Assembly (NCBI GenBank): GCA_034669905.1
Contig: JAXMOL010000045.1
Span: forward strand, 2,584 to 66,583
Direction: 5' to 3'
Length of the DNA: 64,000 nt
Origin: Candidatus Hydrogenedentota bacterium
GTDB taxonomy: Bacteria; Hydrogenedentota; Hydrogenedentia; Hydrogenedentales; JAEUWI01
The position numbers and the translations under genes are program-made. Each line of letters opens with the position of its first letter. The stretch's first letter is position 1. Of this stretch, positions 11,991 to 59,780 are shown one piece after another. The notes under the pieces were generated by a model, which did no database searches, had not been told where the DNA came from, and was given only the letters and a program-made list of their open reading frames with translations.

Positions 11991-13019
11991 TTACAGCGTT
12001 GAGTTTGCCGTGACCTCGTGGGGGTGAAGCCAGGAAAACACGACCGGTTCCATTTCCGTAAGCGACTTTTTGGGCTGACGGGACTGGACCCGTTCCAAGA
12101 GTGTGCGGTAGCGTTCGGGCAGGCGGCACAGGTAGTCCTGGGCCTTGGCCGCGGCGGGGGACAGATCCGTGAGATGCTCTACATCCCACTCCTTGAGAAG
12201 CTGTTCCACAATTTCCACGTAGTCCCATCCGGTGTACACGCCACTCCGCTTCGCCACCTCTTCAAACTTTTTGAAGGTGTCTCCGACTTTTTCGCCCCGC
12301 TCGCGCATGTACATGGCCGGCATGGTGATTTTTTTCTTCATCATGTCTTGAAAGGCAAGGAGGGTCTCGTTCGTGTCTACTTCGAGGATCTTCGAGATGA
12401 AATACTTGTAGGCCCGGGCATGACGGTGTTCGTCGCCGGAGATTTTTGCTGACAGGTTGTAGAGCTTTTCCGCGCCGACCGACCGTGCGATTTTTCCGAC
12501 ATTCAGGTGGGAGATGCGCGTGGCGACTTCCTGAAAGGACGTGTAGATGAAGGTGCGGTAGGGATCATTTTCACTCTGGGTGTCGCCCCCGTCTGCAATA
12601 AGATTCTGAACGGTGACCTCCACTTCCCGCATATTGACCCGTCCGGAAAGGTAGAGCCAACGGTTCAGCAGATCGCCGTGGCGGTTCTCTTCCCCGCACC
12701 AGGCGCGATTCCAGGCGCCCCAGGCCGTCCGGGGTTCCCCCGTGGCCTCGACGCCTTCGAGGGTGCTGATCCACGACGCATAGGAGGGCAACGCTTCTTC
12801 GGTGATCATATCCCCGACGAGAATAATCAAGGCGTCCTCGGGCAAGCGGGATGCTTCATCACGAAGCTCCCGGAGTGCTTCGAAGCCTTCGTCGGTGGAG
12901 AGATCGGGGGTATAGTCGCTTGGCTGCCAGTTAATCTCGGGATTGCGAAGGAATACCGGTAGTTTTTCGGCCACAAATTTCTCAACGTACTGCATGACTT
13001 CGAGGCGGGATGGAATCAT
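11991..13019 (-). CDS. Soluble acyl-ACP desaturase (plant/mycobacterial DesA-type di-iron)
   Basis: ITEEALPSY, WCGEENRHGDLL, YTSFQE.ATRISH and DEHRH di-iron motifs. Start placed at MIPSRLEV. Confidence 0.92.
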   Translation of the reverse strand: MIPSRLEVMQYVEKFVAEKLPVFLRNPEINWQPSDYTPDLSTDEGFEALRELRDEASRLPEDALIILVGDMITEEALPSYASWISTLEGVEATGEPRTAWGAWNRAWCGEENRHGDLLNRWLYLSGRVNMREVEVTVQNLIADGGDTQSENDPYRTFIYTSFQEVATRISHLNVGKIARSVGAEKLYNLSAKISGDEHRHARAYKYFISKILEVDTNETLLAFQDMMKKKITMPAMYMRERGEKVGDTFKKFEEVAKRSGVYTGWDYVEIVEQLLKEWDVEHLTDLSPAAAKAQDYLCRLPERYRTLLERVQSRQPKKSLTEMEPVVFSWLHPHEVTANSTL

Positions 13020-13476
13020 TGGGGGCCTGTACTTTCTTTGGGATGGATTCGGGGATAAATGAAGATACGAAATAAAACTGTTAGGATCTAAAGTATAGGA
13101 TCGGGGCACGGAAAAATGCAACGATTTCAACGGGGCGAGCCGTAGTGATTATACCCTTTTTCGGCCGTCGACGTGGTGAGGCGAAAAGCGGGAATCTCAA
13201 TTAATTCCTCCGAAACCAGACGCAATTTGCGTTTCCCCTCCCGGAATAGATACCATGAACGCCTTAGACTGGTGTAGTATGGAAGTTATGTCTGCTTGCC
13301 ATCGAAGCACGGCCCAATCGGGATTTAACCACCGCCAGGGGTGCTTCGGAGCGGGTCGGCCATGCAGGTTTGGCGCGGGACGACGACCAGCGGCCTGTTT
13401 AATGCCCAGCCGGAGGTAATCTTGGCCTGTGCCCGCTATTCGCCGGGTTAGTAGCAGCGTTGGTGAAGGTACGACA

Positions 13477-14076
13477 ATGAAGAACAGAGTATTTACGACG
13501 GGTGAAGTCGCCACGATTTGTGGTGTGTCCGCCGATACGGTTTCGCGTTGGTTTGACCTGGGTCAGATCGAAGGGTACCGTCTCGGGCCGGGAGGCGACC
13601 GACGGATACCCTATGACAGCTTACGCACGTTCATGCTGAATCATGGCATTCCGGTGGAGCGGTTGGAAGAAGGCGAACGTCGTATTCTGGTCGTAGACGA
13701 TGACCCCTATTACCTCGATATCATCCCGTCGGTACTCGCACGTGAAGATGATTTCGTCGTATTGACGGCTTCCACCGGTTTTGACGCGGGCGCCATCATC
13801 GTCGAGCACAATCCCCAGTTGGTCATCTTGGACATCCATCTCTCTGATATGGATGGTCGGATGGTTTGCGAGCGGGTGAAAGCGCGGGTCGAAACGCGGA
13901 ATACCCGTATTCTTGGTATCTCCGGTTTTATCGAAGAAGAGGAAATCCTCGAACTGTCCAGTTACGGCTTCGATGATTTCCTGAAGAAGCCCTTCCATAT
14001 TGAGGAGCTGGCCCAACGGGTGAACCAGCTCTTCGCCCTGCCCCCGGCGAAAGTCAGTCGACCCCGCGCCCTCTAG
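13477..14076 (+). CDS. Response regulator with N-terminal excisionase/MerR-like HTH and C-terminal receiver
   Basis: FTTGEVATICGVSADTVSRWFD...RRIP HTH; ILVVDDD, LVILDIHL, KPF. Confidence 0.9.
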   Translation: MKNRVFTTGEVATICGVSADTVSRWFDLGQIEGYRLGPGGDRRIPYDSLRTFMLNHGIPVERLEEGERRILVVDDDPYYLDIIPSVLAREDDFVVLTASTGFDAGAIIVEHNPQLVILDIHLSDMDGRMVCERVKARVETRNTRILGISGFIEEEEILELSSYGFDDFLKKPFHIEELAQRVNQLFALPPAKVSRPRAL

Positions 14077-14148: not shown

Positions 14149-15129
14149 TCAGGGCCACTCGGGCTTGGCTTCCCGGGCCATCAGGGTTTCTATGGCTTCC
14201 CGGGCGGGCACGCCGTCGAAAAGGACCCGGTGGGTCGCTTCTGCGAGGGGGAGTTCAACCCCCATTTTCTGGGCCAGCATGCACGCTGATTGGGTGGTCC
14301 GGATGCCTTCGGCGACCATGTGGCTTCCGGCCCGAATTTGCTCCAGTGTTTCCCCCCGTGCGATGGCTTCCCCTACGGCACGATTGCGCGAGTGTTTGCT
14401 GGTGCAGGTGGTGATCAGGTCGCCCATGCCACTAAGGCCGGCAAAGGTAAGCGGATTGGCCCCACAGGCCACGCCCAGACGCGCGATTTCGGCCAGTCCC
14501 CGTGTGATGAGGGCAGATTTGGCGTTGTCACCCAGGCCAAAGCCATCGCAAACGCCCGCGGCAATGGCCACCACGTTCTTCAGGGAACCGCCCAACTCCA
14601 CGCCGATGATGTCGGGACTGGAATAGACCCGAAAGCGATCGCTGAAAAAGGCCGCCTGTACGGCTTTTCGGGCCGCGGCGTCGGTGCCCCCTGCGACGAC
14701 GGAGGCGGGCAGGTTTCGGCCCACTTCTTCGGCATGGCTGGGACCCGAAAGGGAAACGACGGGACCGCCGCCCGGGGCCATGGCTTCGATCACCTCACTC
14801 ATGCGGAGCAGGCTGTCATTCTCGATGCCCTTGGCGACACTGACGCGGATTAGATGGTTCTTGAAGGAGAATGCGGGGACGACGGCGCGCATGACGTGGG
14901 AGGGGACGGCGTAGACCACCATCTCCGCCTCCGGGTTGATTTCGGTCTCGATGCGGACCGATTCGGGCAGCAGCACTCCGGGCAGATAGGTCTTACTCTC
15001 TCGGGTTCGTCGCAATTCGTCGGGCTGATCTTCGCTACGGCACCAGAGTTGAACGTCGTTACCATTAAGCGCCAGGAGGCGTGTAATGGCGAGTCCCCAG
15101 CTTCCACCACCAATAATCTGAATATGCAT
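14149..15129 (-). CDS. gpsA: NAD(P)H-dependent glycerol-3-phosphate dehydrogenase
   Basis: GGGSWG, KGIE, LSGPSHAEE, GGSLKNVVAIAAG, GLSGMGDL...SRN motifs. Confidence 0.96.
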   Translation of the reverse strand: MHIQIIGGGSWGLAITRLLALNGNDVQLWCRSEDQPDELRRTRESKTYLPGVLLPESVRIETEINPEAEMVVYAVPSHVMRAVVPAFSFKNHLIRVSVAKGIENDSLLRMSEVIEAMAPGGGPVVSLSGPSHAEEVGRNLPASVVAGGTDAAARKAVQAAFFSDRFRVYSSPDIIGVELGGSLKNVVAIAAGVCDGFGLGDNAKSALITRGLAEIARLGVACGANPLTFAGLSGMGDLITTCTSKHSRNRAVGEAIARGETLEQIRAGSHMVAEGIRTTQSACMLAQKMGVELPLAEATHRVLFDGVPAREAIETLMAREAKPEWP

Positions 15130-15241
15130 CGGTTTGTCAGTCCCTCGTTGTTCGCTCCTTGGGGGAGCGATTACATTGCGTATCGGCGTACCCTAGCAAA
15201 GCCTTGGTAGGGGGCGCAATGGGAACGGTGGGGGAATAGAC

Positions 15242-15364
15242 AAAAAACGCCCGCCGAGGGGGGCACCTCGACGGGCTGCGGCAGGTAGGCTCTGATTTGG
15301 CAGGGGGCATGCCAAAGTGAGGGAGTTGTTGACTCCGAAGAGTCATTCAACTGTGCGAGCCTAC
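15242..15364 (-). ncRNA. Putative structured small RNA, copy 1 (three-way junction + intrinsic terminator)
   Basis: TATACT -10 at 15377-15372. P1 GUAGGCUC/GAGCCUAC, UUCG-capped P2, P3 UUUGGCA/UGCCAAA, then a GC hairpin and U6. Confidence 0.72.
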
Positions 15365-15640
15365 AATTAGAAGTATAGCGTATAAGTACATAGAAAATGA
15401 AACGAAATTACGTAGATTATTCATTAATCGTCATAGGCCGGGCGGTGTAGGAACGGCACTATTCACGATGGCGCCTGGGCGTTTGGGGTGGGGCAGCGTG
15501 GTCGAGCGTACGTGCCACAGCGAGGAAGGCTCGCTATCCGGTACCCACGGCGGTGGCTGAGCGGGGAGTTGCACCCGGGGGCACAGTACGCTATGGTTGT
15601 GATATGGAACTGAAGACGCCCATTCGCACAACCCGTCCTG

Positions 15641-15767
15641 AAAAAGGAAGCGCCCGCCGAGGGGGGCACCTCGACGGGCTGCGGCAGGTAGGCTCTGATT
15701 TGGCAGGGGGCATGCCAACGTGAGGGAGCTGATGACTCCGAAGAGTCAATCAACTGTGCGAGCCTAC
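15641..15767 (-). ncRNA. Putative structured small RNA, copy 2
   Basis: Near-identical to copy 1 at a 403-bp offset, with its own TATACT -10 (15780-15775). Substitutions keep P2 paired. Confidence 0.72.
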
Positions 15768-15949
15768 AATCAGAAGTATAGAGTAAAAGTGTGTAGAAAA
15801 TGTGACAGAAAGTTATGTTTAGTATAAATATGTCCCGGATCAGGTCATAGTGCGTCTTGGGGTATGGCTGAAAACTCTAAATTCTGGTGTTGGGTGCCTG
15901 CAGATAGATTTCATCGCGGATGGACCTTTCTTGCCAAGGAGAATCTGAG

Positions 15950-16327
15950 ATGGCTCGTATTTTGGTAATCGACGATCACTATCCGATGCGTCAGACGATT
16001 CGCGAACTGCTGGAGGACGATGGCCATGAGGTGTTGGAGGCTGCCAATGGGCTTTCGGGGCTTCAGATCCAACGTACCCAACACGCCGATCTCGTGATTA
16101 CGGACATCTTCATGCCGGAAAAGGAAGGGATGTCGACGATTCGGGAGTTGTGCAACGAGTTTCCCGGCATCCGGACCATTGCCATATCGGGGGGCGCGGG
16201 TGATCTAACGGCGCCGGAGAGCTTTATCGATCTTGCCCGACGATTTGGGGCACGGGCGACCATCGTCAAGCCCTTCAAGGTAGATGATTTTCTGGCTGTC
16301 GTGCATCAGGTGCTGAGCGAAGAGTAA
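15950..16327 (+). CDS. Single-domain response regulator (receiver)
   Basis: ILVIDDH, LVITDIFMPEKEG, AISGG, KPF. AAGGAG RBS. Confidence 0.9.
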   Translation: MARILVIDDHYPMRQTIRELLEDDGHEVLEAANGLSGLQIQRTQHADLVITDIFMPEKEGMSTIRELCNEFPGIRTIAISGGAGDLTAPESFIDLARRFGARATIVKPFKVDDFLAVVHQVLSEE

Positions 16328-16404: not shown

Positions 16405-16506
16405 TTAGAAACCGTCAAAAAATCCCACACCCGCGCCGAAGAGAAAAAGAAGCACGGCACCCAGGGTAAACAGGAATCCGTTGATGATCTGATCAAGAAG
16501 GGTCAT
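16405..16506 (-). CDS. 33-aa hydrophobic small protein
   Basis: AGGAG RBS 7 nt before ATG 16506; MTLLDQIINGFLFTLGAVLLFLFGAGVGFFDGF; terminator downstream. Confidence 0.55.
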   Translation of the reverse strand: MTLLDQIINGFLFTLGAVLLFLFGAGVGFFDGF

Positions 16507-26443: not shown

Positions 26444-26677
26444 CTTAGCCCCGGAGGGGCGACATATCGTAGCCCAGGGCGATGCGCAGCAAGCCCTGGG
26501 GGCGTGGGCAAAACTCTCAGAGAGCCCCAGCGGGGCGGTATAGAATTTTCGGAGATGGGACCGAATTCGCGCCCTATGTCGCCCCGTTGGGACTCACATC
26601 GGTGTGTGTCGACCAATACCCAGGACTCGCTTCGCTCGCCGCTGGGCTACGATATGTCGCCCACTTCGTGGACTAAG
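26444..26677. repeat. REP-doublet/MITE-like palindromic element
   Basis: Inverted ends sharing GCGACATATCGTAGCCCA / TGGGCTACGATATGTCGC. Same family as 59544-59780. Confidence 0.8.
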
Positions 26678-59543: not shown

Positions 59544-59780
59544 TTTAGTCCCGTAGGGACGACATATCGTAGCCCAGGTGCGAGCGCAGCGAGCCCTGGG
59601 ATTGCTCGAAAGCGAAAAGCATTGTAACCCCGAAGGGGTGGCATAGAAGTGTTGGGAACTTGGCTGATCTTCCTATGCCACTCCTTCGGAGTTCCGTTCT
59701 TCTGGGGCCTGTCTACCCAGGGTTCCGCTCGTGCCTCGCTTCACCGCTGGGCTACGATATGTCGTCCCTACGGGACTAAA
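59544..59780. mobile_element. 237-bp non-autonomous REP-doublet/MITE-like element
   Basis: Perfect 33-bp terminal inverted repeats (59544-59576 / 59748-59780); no ORF. Confidence 0.75.

What the first reader, a model, noticed from the sequence alone, without database searches (positions are those of the whole stretch)
15242..15802. Twin structured ncRNAs, each with its own promoter and terminator, upstream of gpsA
Seen: two ~125-nt minus-strand copies 403 bp apart. Each has TATACT exactly 7 nt before an 8-bp closing stem (GUAGGCUC/GAGCCUAC) enclosing a UUCG-capped hairpin and a hairpin with a UGCCCCC loop, followed by a GC hairpin plus U-tract. The P2 differences preserve or add pairing (U-A to U-G; A.A to A-U). 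A CATTTTCTA box at -35..-27 is identical in both copies while the spacer between it and the -10 has diverged, suggesting a shared regulator. Copy 2 has a weaker U-tract, so a read-through dimer is possible. Established: tandem sibling sRNAs exist (Pseudomonas PrrF1/PrrF2). Inference: this is a sibling sRNA pair or tandem attenuator that I do not recognise as a known family.
Basis: partly seen in the sequence, partly recalled or inferred. Interest (0 to 1): 0.82.

Follow-up and report, generated by a model that had tools for sequence, protein, structure and literature searches.

The report
Twin abundant small RNAs of Hydrogenedentes
Two adjacent, near-identical genes for a ~120-nt structured small RNA with C-rich loops lie upstream of gpsA in an uncultured Hydrogenedentes bacterium; they are conserved as a pair in related species, are very abundant in environmental RNA data, and match no catalogued RNA family.

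Summary
Two 155-nt direct repeats (93% identical, 403 nt apart, minus strand) lie between a divergent CheY-like response regulator and gpsA. Each has a TATACT -10 box 7 nt before an 8-bp closing stem. Each also has a UUCG hairpin, a hairpin with a UGCCCCC loop, an 8-nt linker and a GC-rich terminator.

No Rfam family matches. The organism is a Candidatus Hydrogenedentes MAG.

The pair is present at the same syntenic locus wherever the gpsA protein is at least 74% identical; one lineage (82%) has a single copy. It is absent at gpsA loci of 72% identity or less. The RNA is 90-98% identical across species, against 70-82% for the gpsA coding DNA and about 50% for the flanks. Conservation starts at the predicted 5' end and stops after the U tract.

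Of the 37 predicted pairs, 99.6% of cells are paired and four pairs show compensatory changes.

Metatranscriptome contigs carry the RNA. In one biofilm sample the summed depth reaches about 5x10^5, is confined to the two copies, and adapters abut the base of the terminator.

Best reading: a new family of sibling trans-acting sRNAs whose invariant C-rich unpaired motifs pair with G-rich, Shine-Dalgarno-like mRNA sites. The genes and their expression are shown; the targets and the mechanism are inferred.

The parts
15640..15767 (-). Distal (upstream) sRNA gene. It runs from GUAGGCUC at 15767 to the tail GCUUCCUUUUU at 15651-15641. The terminator stem-loop is 15679-15652.
   Evidence: Repeat; fold; terminator scan; covariance-model score 154 bits. 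The interrupted U tail GCUUCCUUUU is conserved in the distal copy of every species.
15242..15364 (-). Proximal (gpsA-side) sRNA gene. P1 is 15364-15357 with 15292-15285. The J2/3 motif CCCUCAC is 15323-15317. The P3 loop UGCCCCC is 15309-15303. The linker CUGCCGCA is 15284-15277. The terminator is 15276-15249 with its loop at 15265-15260. The U tract is 15247-15242.
   Evidence: covariance-model score 157.6 bits. An RNA contig in run X34 spans 15244-15365 and ends 2 nt beyond, at about 15367. Adapters abut 15248-15252 in runs X28-X31.
15372..15399 (-). Promoter of the proximal copy: -10 box TATACT at 15377-15372, and the CATTTTCTA box at 15399-15391 over the -35 region.
   Evidence: Sequence. 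The -10 box (TATACT, CATACT or CATAAT) is kept 7 nt upstream of GTAGGCTC in nearly all of the 21 copies aligned; L013 distal is not clear. The upstream T-rich/-35-like region is also kept, while the rest of the flank is unconserved.
15775..15802 (-). Promoter of the distal copy: -10 box TATACT at 15780-15775, and CATTTTCTA at 15802-15794.
   Evidence: The direct repeat starts exactly at the C of the box.
15400..15639 (-). Spacer between the two copies; not conserved.
   Evidence: 29-60% identity to the orthologous spacers, which is background level, and start-to-start spacing between the copies ranges from about 250 to 500 nt among species. No RNA coverage of the spacer of relative L020.
15190..15198 (-). 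TGCTAGGGT, an extended -10-like motif (TGnTAnnnT) about 60 nt upstream of the gpsA ATG. It is a candidate promoter of gpsA's own.
   Evidence: CTTTGCTAGGGTA or a close variant is conserved at the same place in L001, L012, L081, L013 and L010. The promoter role is inferred.
14149..15129 (-). gpsA, NAD(P)H-dependent glycerol-3-phosphate dehydrogenase, downstream of the pair and in the same orientation.
   Evidence: Pfam. Homologues are named Candidatus Hydrogenedentes.
15950..16327 (+). Single-domain CheY-like response regulator, transcribed divergently from the sRNA pair.
   Evidence: Pfam Response_reg, E 3e-20. The synteny is conserved in L001, L008, L010, L012, L013 and L081.

Best explanation
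These are two separate genes for a ~120-nt small RNA: an old tandem duplication, i.e. sibling sRNAs. Each is transcribed from its own sigma70-type promoter and ends at its own intrinsic terminator.

The RNA folds into a three-way junction (P1, P2 with a UUCG loop, P3) followed by a linker and a terminator hairpin. It displays four invariant or near-invariant unpaired stretches: CCCUCA (J2/3), (U/A)GCCCCC (P3 loop), CUGCCGCA (linker) and UGCCCC(CC) (terminator loop).

The most likely mechanism is action in trans. The C-rich unpaired motifs would pair with G-rich sequences at or near Shine-Dalgarno sites of several mRNAs and change their translation or stability. Actinobacterial 6C, staphylococcal UCCC-motif sRNAs/RsaE-RoxS and rhizobial AbcR1/2 work this way.

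Shown: the genes, the structure, the conservation, the discrete and abundant transcripts in relatives, and the absence of a known family.
Inferred: the promoter assignment, trans action, the nature of the targets, and any link to the flanking response regulators.

My odds are about 0.9 that these are real, independently expressed sRNA genes, and about 0.5 that the mechanism is C-rich-loop pairing with G-rich sites.
For: Gene units:
- The repeat spans promoter box to terminator.
- In 21-31 copies from about 10 lineages, conservation begins at GTAGGCTC, 7 nt after the -10 box, and ends after the U tract.
- Identity to the window is 90-98% for the RNA, 70-82% for the gpsA CDS, 60-81% for the RR and about 50% for the flanks and spacer.

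Structure:
- z is -6.2 and -5.3.
- 99.6% of 998 cells are paired, against 33-44% when the partners are slid.
- Four pairs show compensatory changes (P1 G-C to A-U; P2 A-U to G-C and U-A to C-G; P3 U-A to G-U). 0 of 500 shuffles reach this.

Not coding:
- J3/1 varies by 1-6 nt in length, and only one copy has the AUG.

Two copies only:
-.
- The distal-specific tail GCUUCCUUUU is kept in all species, which indicates an old duplication.

Expression:
- RNA runs hold the sequence.
- X32 contigs of 107-111 nt, depth 20-26, are confined to the RNA.
- An X34 contig ends at about 15367, against a predicted 5' end at 15365 +/-1.
- Biofilm runs X28-X31 reach a summed depth of up to about 5x10^5 on both copies of relative L020. 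Depth is zero in the spacer, the promoters and 4.4 kb of neighbouring genes, and adapters abut the terminator base.

Accessibility:
- Mean unpaired probability is 0.98 for CCCUCAC, 0.81 for the P3 loop and 0.75-0.89 for the linker.

Precedent:
- 6C binds its targets through C-rich loops (PMC6486639).
- AbcR1/2 are encoded in tandem (PMC3712013).
Against: No target is identified. Duplex scans of the four motifs against crude translation-initiation regions of 45 ORFs in the window gave no enrichment over random positions. The initiation regions of the syntenic neighbours show no conserved complementarity.

The 3' 43 nt, including both strands of the terminator stem, are invariant across species (one position is U/C). 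That is more constraint than pairing alone requires. It could point to a protein partner.

The very high abundance is more typical of sequestering or housekeeping RNAs.

All expression data come from relatives in metatranscriptome contigs. They are unstranded, and contig ends are confounded by the repeat. None come from this genome.

Some low-depth contigs run past the terminators.
Confidence: 0.55

Rival explanations
1. The RNAs are abundant protein-binding decoys, in the manner of CsrB/RsmZ, CrcZ or 6S. The repeated C-rich loops and the invariant 3' half would be binding sites for an RNA-binding protein that the RNA titrates, rather than seeds for mRNA pairing.
For: - Extreme abundance in the biofilm metatranscriptome.
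- Sequence-level invariance of the 43-nt 3' half, stems included.
- Three similar C-rich motifs per RNA and two genes, which is the multivalency typical of sponges.
- No target found.
Against: - No candidate protein is known or encoded next to the genes.
- There are only 3-4 motifs per RNA, against many in CsrB.
- C-rich loops are a documented base-pairing device (PMC6486639).
- Contig depth is a poor measure of abundance, and the library has very short inserts (35-60 nt), which may enrich stable hairpin fragments.
Confidence: 0.2
2. The elements act in cis as tandem leaders, attenuators or riboswitches controlling gpsA. The three-way junction would sense a ligand or factor and the terminator would decide read-through into gpsA.
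For: - The elements are always upstream of gpsA and in the same orientation, in all loci found.
- The architecture, a three-way junction plus a terminator, resembles a riboswitch.
- Low-depth RNA contigs continue 30-130 nt past the terminator in X25, X26, X27, X33, X34 and X36.
Against: - Folding finds no competing antiterminator. With the 3' strand of the terminator removed, the 5' domain is unchanged and the 5' strand pairs with nothing upstream of the linker.
- The junction strands J1/2 and J3/1 vary in sequence and length while the loops are invariant. A ligand pocket would show the opposite pattern.
- The distal copy is followed by 110-355 nt of unconserved spacer and then a second promoter.
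- A conserved extended -10-like motif lies between the proximal terminator and gpsA.
- In the deep runs, coverage stops at the terminator.
Confidence: 0.08
3. The active species is a processed 3' fragment of about 75-85 nt (CCCUCA seed, P3, linker and terminator), released by cleavage in J2/3 as for ArcZ or RprA. The 5' P1/P2 part would only be a precursor segment. This is a variant of the best explanation, not an exclusive alternative to it.
For: In X28-X31 the depth over the 3' ~80 nt is 40 to 5000 times that over P2 and the 5' strand of P1. Adapter junctions mark fragment 5' ends at L020 7522-7544 and 7907, which lie in or next to CCCUCA.
Against: - Near-full-length contigs exist in X32 and X34.
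- P1 is conserved and shows a compensatory change, so the full fold is under selection.
- The stable UUCG hairpin, the short-insert library, and sequence differences in the variable P2 of the sampled organism could all produce the bias.
Confidence: 0.25
4. It is only a DNA repeat (REP-like or a remnant of a mobile element) with no RNA function.
For: It is a direct repeat with hairpins in an intergenic region.
Against: - There are only two copies per genome, at one syntenic locus.
- It is much more conserved than the adjacent coding DNA.
- Compensatory changes are present.
- Transcripts are abundant.
- There are no hits in viral contigs.
Confidence: 0.02

Closest known systems
6C sRNA of Actinobacteria (Rfam 6C; Mai et al. 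2019, PMC6486639)
   Same: A small structured RNA whose hairpin loops carry runs of C. In 6C these loops bind G-rich sites in several mRNAs without a chaperone. Here two loops, (U/A)GCCCCC and UGCCCC(CC), plus CCCUCA are invariant and unpaired.
   Different: No sequence or covariance-model match in the Rfam scan. The fold differs: here a three-way junction closed by an 8-bp P1. The phylum differs. The RNA here is present as a tandem pair.
AbcR1/AbcR2 of Rhizobiales (ar15 family; PMC3712013, PMC4152367)
   Same: Two homologous sRNAs encoded in tandem in one intergenic region. Each has its own promoter and terminator, a regulator gene lies next door, and both use C-rich anti-SD-like motifs in a loop and in a single-stranded stretch.
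   Different: No homology. The only weak Rfam hits are to ar14 and Rhizobiales-2, through the terminator loop and far below threshold. The neighbour here is a CheY-like response regulator, not a LysR regulator. Targets are unknown.
OmrA/OmrB and PrrF1/PrrF2 (enterobacterial and Pseudomonas sibling sRNAs; own knowledge; review PMC4211561)
   Same: Adjacent, same-strand sibling sRNAs a few hundred nt or less apart, with near-identical functional parts. For OmrA/B, expression is controlled by a two-component system.
   Different: Unrelated sequence and fold. Those RNAs use 5' or internal seeds that are not C-rich and depend on Hfq. Regulation by the flanking response regulators is only a guess here.
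RsaE/RoxS and UCCC-motif sRNAs of Firmicutes (own knowledge: Geissmann et al. 2009)
   Same: Unpaired C-rich motifs that pair with Shine-Dalgarno regions; abundant RNAs.
   Different: No Rfam match; different architecture and phylum.

Membership tests
Any Rfam 15 family (4227 models, including 6C, RsaE, PrrF, ar14/ar15, riboswitches, SRP, 6S, tmRNA) | Covariance-model score at or above the family's gathering threshold | tested here: not met
   There is no hit on 15000-16100 at gathering score. At E<=10 the best matches are Rhizobiales-2 at 23.5 and 21.8 bits (gathering score 40), ar14 at 16.9 (58.8) and ctRNA_pGA1 at 16.9 (45). All have E>1.
tRNA / tmRNA | ARAGORN detection | tested here: not met
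   0 genes in 15000-16000.
Sibling (paralogous) trans-encoded sRNAs | Two or more homologous sRNA genes in one genome | tested here: met
   Two copies, 93% identical. The pair is kept in about 10 lineages.
Sibling (paralogous) trans-encoded sRNAs | Each copy has its own promoter and intrinsic terminator | tested here: met
   Terminators are predicted for both copies. A conserved -10 box lies 7 nt upstream, and conservation starts sharply at the 5' end. The RNA contig 5' end is at about 15367, and adapters mark 3' ends at the terminator base. Promoter activity itself was not measured.
Sibling (paralogous) trans-encoded sRNAs | Expressed as discrete small transcripts | tested here: met
   This holds for close relatives, not for this genome. 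Coverage is confined to the two copies of L020 at very high depth. Contigs of 107-154 nt occur in X32 and X34.
Sibling (paralogous) trans-encoded sRNAs | Base pairing with mRNA targets encoded elsewhere | not testable with these tools
   Whole-genome access was closed. A scan limited to the window was uninformative.
Transcription-terminating riboswitch / attenuator | Mutually exclusive terminator and antiterminator structures | tested here: not met
   Constrained folding shows no alternative pairing between the terminator strands and the upstream domain.
Transcription-terminating riboswitch / attenuator | Conserved junction or ligand-pocket nucleotides, with variable peripheral loops | tested here: not met
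   J1/2 and J3/1 vary in sequence and length, while the loops are invariant.
Transcription-terminating riboswitch / attenuator | Lies in the 5' UTR and is co-transcribed with the regulated gene | tested here: inconclusive
   It is always upstream of gpsA, and a few low-depth contigs pass the terminator. Against this, there is a conserved promoter-like motif in between and no read-through in the deep runs.

The most novel reading that the evidence does not exclude
The pair is not an ordinary target-specific riboregulator. Instead it would be a very abundant global RNA of a new class in Hydrogenedentota. One possibility is an anti-Shine-Dalgarno mimic or decoy, with CUCCCUCA plus two poly-C loops competing with 16S rRNA for G-rich ribosome-binding sites genome-wide. 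Another is a sponge for a still unknown RNA-binding protein specific for C-rich RNA. In either case a processed 3' fragment of about 80 nt would be the active form.
Probability: 0.15. Interest if true: 0.7.

Novelty: new member of a known kind. Interest (0 to 1): 0.45.

Why it matters
A full-text search found no paper that mentions both Hydrogenedentes and sRNA. This would be a well-delimited sRNA family in that candidate phylum. It already has a covariance model, a supported structure and evidence of very high expression in nature.

It shows that the design of tandem siblings with C-rich loops, known from Actinobacteria, Firmicutes and Alphaproteobacteria, also occurs in a distant lineage.

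It is a concrete Rfam candidate. The conserved neighbourhood (gpsA, an acyl-ACP-type desaturase and two response regulators) suggests a link to membrane-lipid homeostasis that can be tested.

It does not change any general concept.

Tried and rejected
- Rfam at gathering score and at E<=10: nothing meaningful.
- ARAGORN: nothing.
- Coding potential: rejected. ORFs 15137-15346 and 15431-15753 start inside the RNA and run into unconserved flanks. The indels in J3/1 are not multiples of three.
- Antiterminator search by constrained folding: none found.
- Target search in the window and in the initiation regions of syntenic neighbours: no signal.
- Exact-pattern scan of metagenome contigs: 59 loci, of which only 3 were real by the covariance model (L048, L051, L064). 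The rest were chance matches.
- Viral contigs: none.
- gpsA loci of more distant relatives (L014/15, L083, L084): no copy even with filters off.
- Contig ends in DNA-like and low-depth RNA runs (X24, X25, X26, X37-X40) were rejected as evidence for the 5' end. Assembly graphs break at the stretches shared between the two copies.
So there was no whole-genome covariance-model scan, no genome-wide target prediction, and no check for Hfq, ProQ or CsrA.

Full report
**1. Observation**

The minus strand of 15100-16000 holds two 155-nt direct repeats, 15245-15399 and 15648-15802. They are 93% identical with a spacing of 403 nt. A 35-nt core occurs only at these two places in the 64-kb window, with 0 expected by chance.

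Each copy has the following elements:
- TATACT exactly 7 nt before GTAGGCTC.
- CATTTTCTA in the -35 region, in the same register in both copies.
- An 8-bp closing stem (P1).
- A hairpin capped by UUCG (P2).
- A hairpin with a UGCCCCC loop (P3).
- An 8-nt linker, CUGCCGCA.
- An 11-bp GC-rich hairpin followed by Us.

Both copies fold much better than shuffled sequence. MFE is -55.2 and -59.0 kcal/mol, z is -6.2 and -5.3, and 0 of 200 shuffles fold as well. The terminator scan finds both hairpins.

**2. Surroundings and organism**

The 820-nt intergenic region lies between two genes:
- gpsA (14149-15129, minus strand), downstream of the repeats.
- A divergent single-domain CheY-like response regulator (15950-16327, plus strand).

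Further out lie a GH31 glycosidase, an HTH_17-receiver regulator convergent with gpsA, and an acyl-ACP-type desaturase.

gpsA homologues carry the name Candidatus Hydrogenedentes. One record is labelled Hydrogenedentiales. DNA runs that hold the stretch are marine and plastic-associated metagenomes.

**3. Known families**

Rfam 15 gives no hit at gathering score. At E<=10 the only matches are far below threshold: Rhizobiales-2, ar14 and a ctRNA. They align to the C-rich terminator loop. ARAGORN finds nothing. A full-text search for Hydrogenedentes together with sRNA returns no paper.

**4. Relatives**

I fetched contigs that encode gpsA homologues.
- Wherever the gpsA protein is at least 74% identical to the window's, the same block is present: GH31, a 33-aa ORF, the RR, two RNA copies, gpsA and the HTH-RR. 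This holds for L001/2, L008/9, L010, L012, L013 and L081/82.
- One lineage at 82% identity (L004-6) has a single copy and lacks the RR.
- At 72% identity or below (L083, L084, L014/15, and the P0045 contigs by gene map), the synteny is lost. The covariance model finds nothing even with filters off.

An exact two-block pattern scan of one genome per species returned six Hydrogenedentota genomes. Each has one locus with two tandem matches, and one of them is a 7.9-Mb chromosome. A looser scan of metagenome contigs added only three real loci. Viral contigs gave none.

The family is therefore real but narrow. It is never dispersed, and the model finds no third copy in the window.

**5. Conservation pattern**

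In the alignment with flanks, similarity begins abruptly at GTAGGCTC, 7 nt after the -10 box. It ends right after the U tract.

| Element | DNA identity to the window |
|---|---|
| The RNA | 90-98% |
| gpsA coding DNA | 70-82% |
| RR gene | 60-81% |
| Spacer, leader and upstream flank | about 50% (29-80%) |

Variation within the RNA sits in J1/2, parts of P2, J3/1 (1-6 nt long) and the tail.

The following are invariant or nearly so in 31 copies:
- P1.
- CCCUCA.
- The P3 hairpin with its (U/A)GCCCCC loop.
- A 43-nt stretch from the 3' strand of P1 through the linker and the terminator. One position in it is U or C.

The length variation in J3/1, and the lack of an AUG in most copies, exclude a conserved peptide.

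**6. Structure**

On 27 distinct sequences, 99.6% of 998 pair cells are standard pairs. The figure drops to 33-44% when the partners are slid by 1-3 columns.

Four pairs show changes on both sides:
- P1: G-C to A-U, in the distal copy of L081.
- P2: A-U to G-C.
- P2: U-A to C-G.
- P3: U-A to G-U.

0 of 500 shuffles reach this. Most pairs never vary, so the support is consistent but modest.

**7. Two old paralogues**

In every species the upstream (distal) copy ends in GCUUCCUUUU. The gpsA-proximal copy has a plain U tract. In one subclade the distal copy also has C-G where the proximal copy has U-G in the terminator. The duplication therefore predates the divergence of these species.

Other differences, such as the first loop nucleotide and the P2 variant GGCUC/GAGCC, go by species and occur in both copies. 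This suggests occasional gene conversion.

**8. Expression**

Fourteen metatranscriptomic runs hold words of the RNA.

Discrete transcripts:
- In X32, two contigs of 107 and 111 nt (depth 20-26) cover only the RNA.
- In X34, one contig spans 15244-15365 and stops 2 nt further, at about 15367. The predicted start is 15365 +/-1.

Abundance, in four runs of one biofilm sample (X28-X31):
- The summed contig depth reaches about 1.5x10^5 to 5x10^5.
- Laid on the close relative L020, most contigs are at least 99% alike.
- Coverage is confined to the two copies.
- Depth is zero in the spacer, in both promoters, downstream of the terminators and over 4.4 kb of neighbouring genes.
- Illumina adapter sequence directly abuts the base of the terminator stem.

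Both siblings are therefore transcribed as discrete and very abundant small RNAs in nature.

Caveats:
- These are unstranded contigs from relatives.
- Depth is not a calibrated measure of abundance.
- The neighbours' mRNAs may simply be too divergent to map.
- The inserts are very short (35-60 nt).

Coverage is strongly biased towards the 3' ~80 nt, and fragment 5' ends fall in or next to CCCUCA. This may mean processing in J2/3. It may equally be a library artefact.

A few low-depth contigs in other runs continue 30-130 nt past a terminator. Contig ends in those runs are confounded by the stretches shared between the two copies, so I do not use them as evidence for the 5' end.

**9. Mechanism**

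The unpaired, invariant motifs are CCCUCA, GCCCCC, CUGCCGCA and UGCCCC(CC). Mean unpaired probability is 0.98, 0.81 and 0.75-0.89 for the first three. This is the signature of sRNAs that pair with G-rich ribosome-binding regions:
- 6C (PMC6486639).
- AbcR1/2 (PMC4152367, PMC3712013).
- UCCC-motif RNAs and RsaE/RoxS (own knowledge).

I therefore favour sibling trans-acting sRNAs that use C-rich seeds.

Against a cis attenuator or riboswitch for gpsA:
- No alternative antiterminator pairing exists.
- The junction strands vary while the loops are fixed.
- The distal copy is followed by unconserved spacer and then a second promoter.
- A conserved TGnTAnnnT motif lies between the proximal terminator and gpsA and may be the promoter of gpsA itself.

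For a protein-sequestering role:
- The abundance is extreme.
- Both strands of the 3' stems are invariant in sequence.

I could not find targets.

**10. Verdict**

This is a new family of a known kind, tandem sibling sRNAs with C-rich loops, in a phylum for which I found no described sRNA. It is a good Rfam candidate of moderate general interest. What is open is its targets or partner, not its existence.

That agrees with the comparative result here but is not independent evidence.

Noticed in passing
window 26447-26500 (-) and 59547-59600 (-): Two hits to the Rfam motif Acido-Lenti-1 RNA (50 and 41.7 bits; gathering score 37) in this Hydrogenedentes window. As its name says, the motif was described from Acidobacteria and Lentisphaerae. 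The two copies share CCCAGGGCT...CTGGGCTACGATATGTCG.
   Followed up: no
window 16405-16506 (-): A 33-aa hydrophobic small ORF (MTLLDQIINGFLFTLGAVLLFLFGAGVGFFDGF) lies between the GH31 gene and the response regulator. It is conserved almost letter for letter in L001, L008, L010 and L081, so it is probably a real small membrane protein.
   Followed up: partly
window 15190-15202 (-): The motif CTTTGCTAGGGTA, about 60 nt upstream of the gpsA ATG, is conserved in several species although the rest of the leader is not. It looks like an extended -10 promoter (TGnTAnnnT) for gpsA.
   Followed up: partly
window 15641-15651 (-) and the orthologous distal copies: The distal copy's interrupted U tail, GCUUCCUUUU, is conserved in every species, while the proximal copy's tail varies. 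The pyrimidine tail may itself be functional, as an extra anti-SD-like CUUCCU or a protein-binding 3' end.
   Followed up: partly
L020 7461-7544 and 7835-7910 (runs X28-X31): RNA coverage is 40 to 5000 times higher on the 3' ~80 nt than on P2 and the 5' strand of P1. Adapter junctions mark fragment 5' ends in or next to CCCUCA. This may be a processed 3' form or a library bias.
   Followed up: partly
window 13477-14076 (+) and 11991-13130 (-): An HTH_17 (MerR/excisionase-like) plus receiver response regulator lies convergent with gpsA, and an acyl-ACP-type fatty-acid desaturase lies next to it. Both are syntenic with the sRNA pair in most relatives. The neighbourhood has a membrane-lipid theme.
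   Followed up: no
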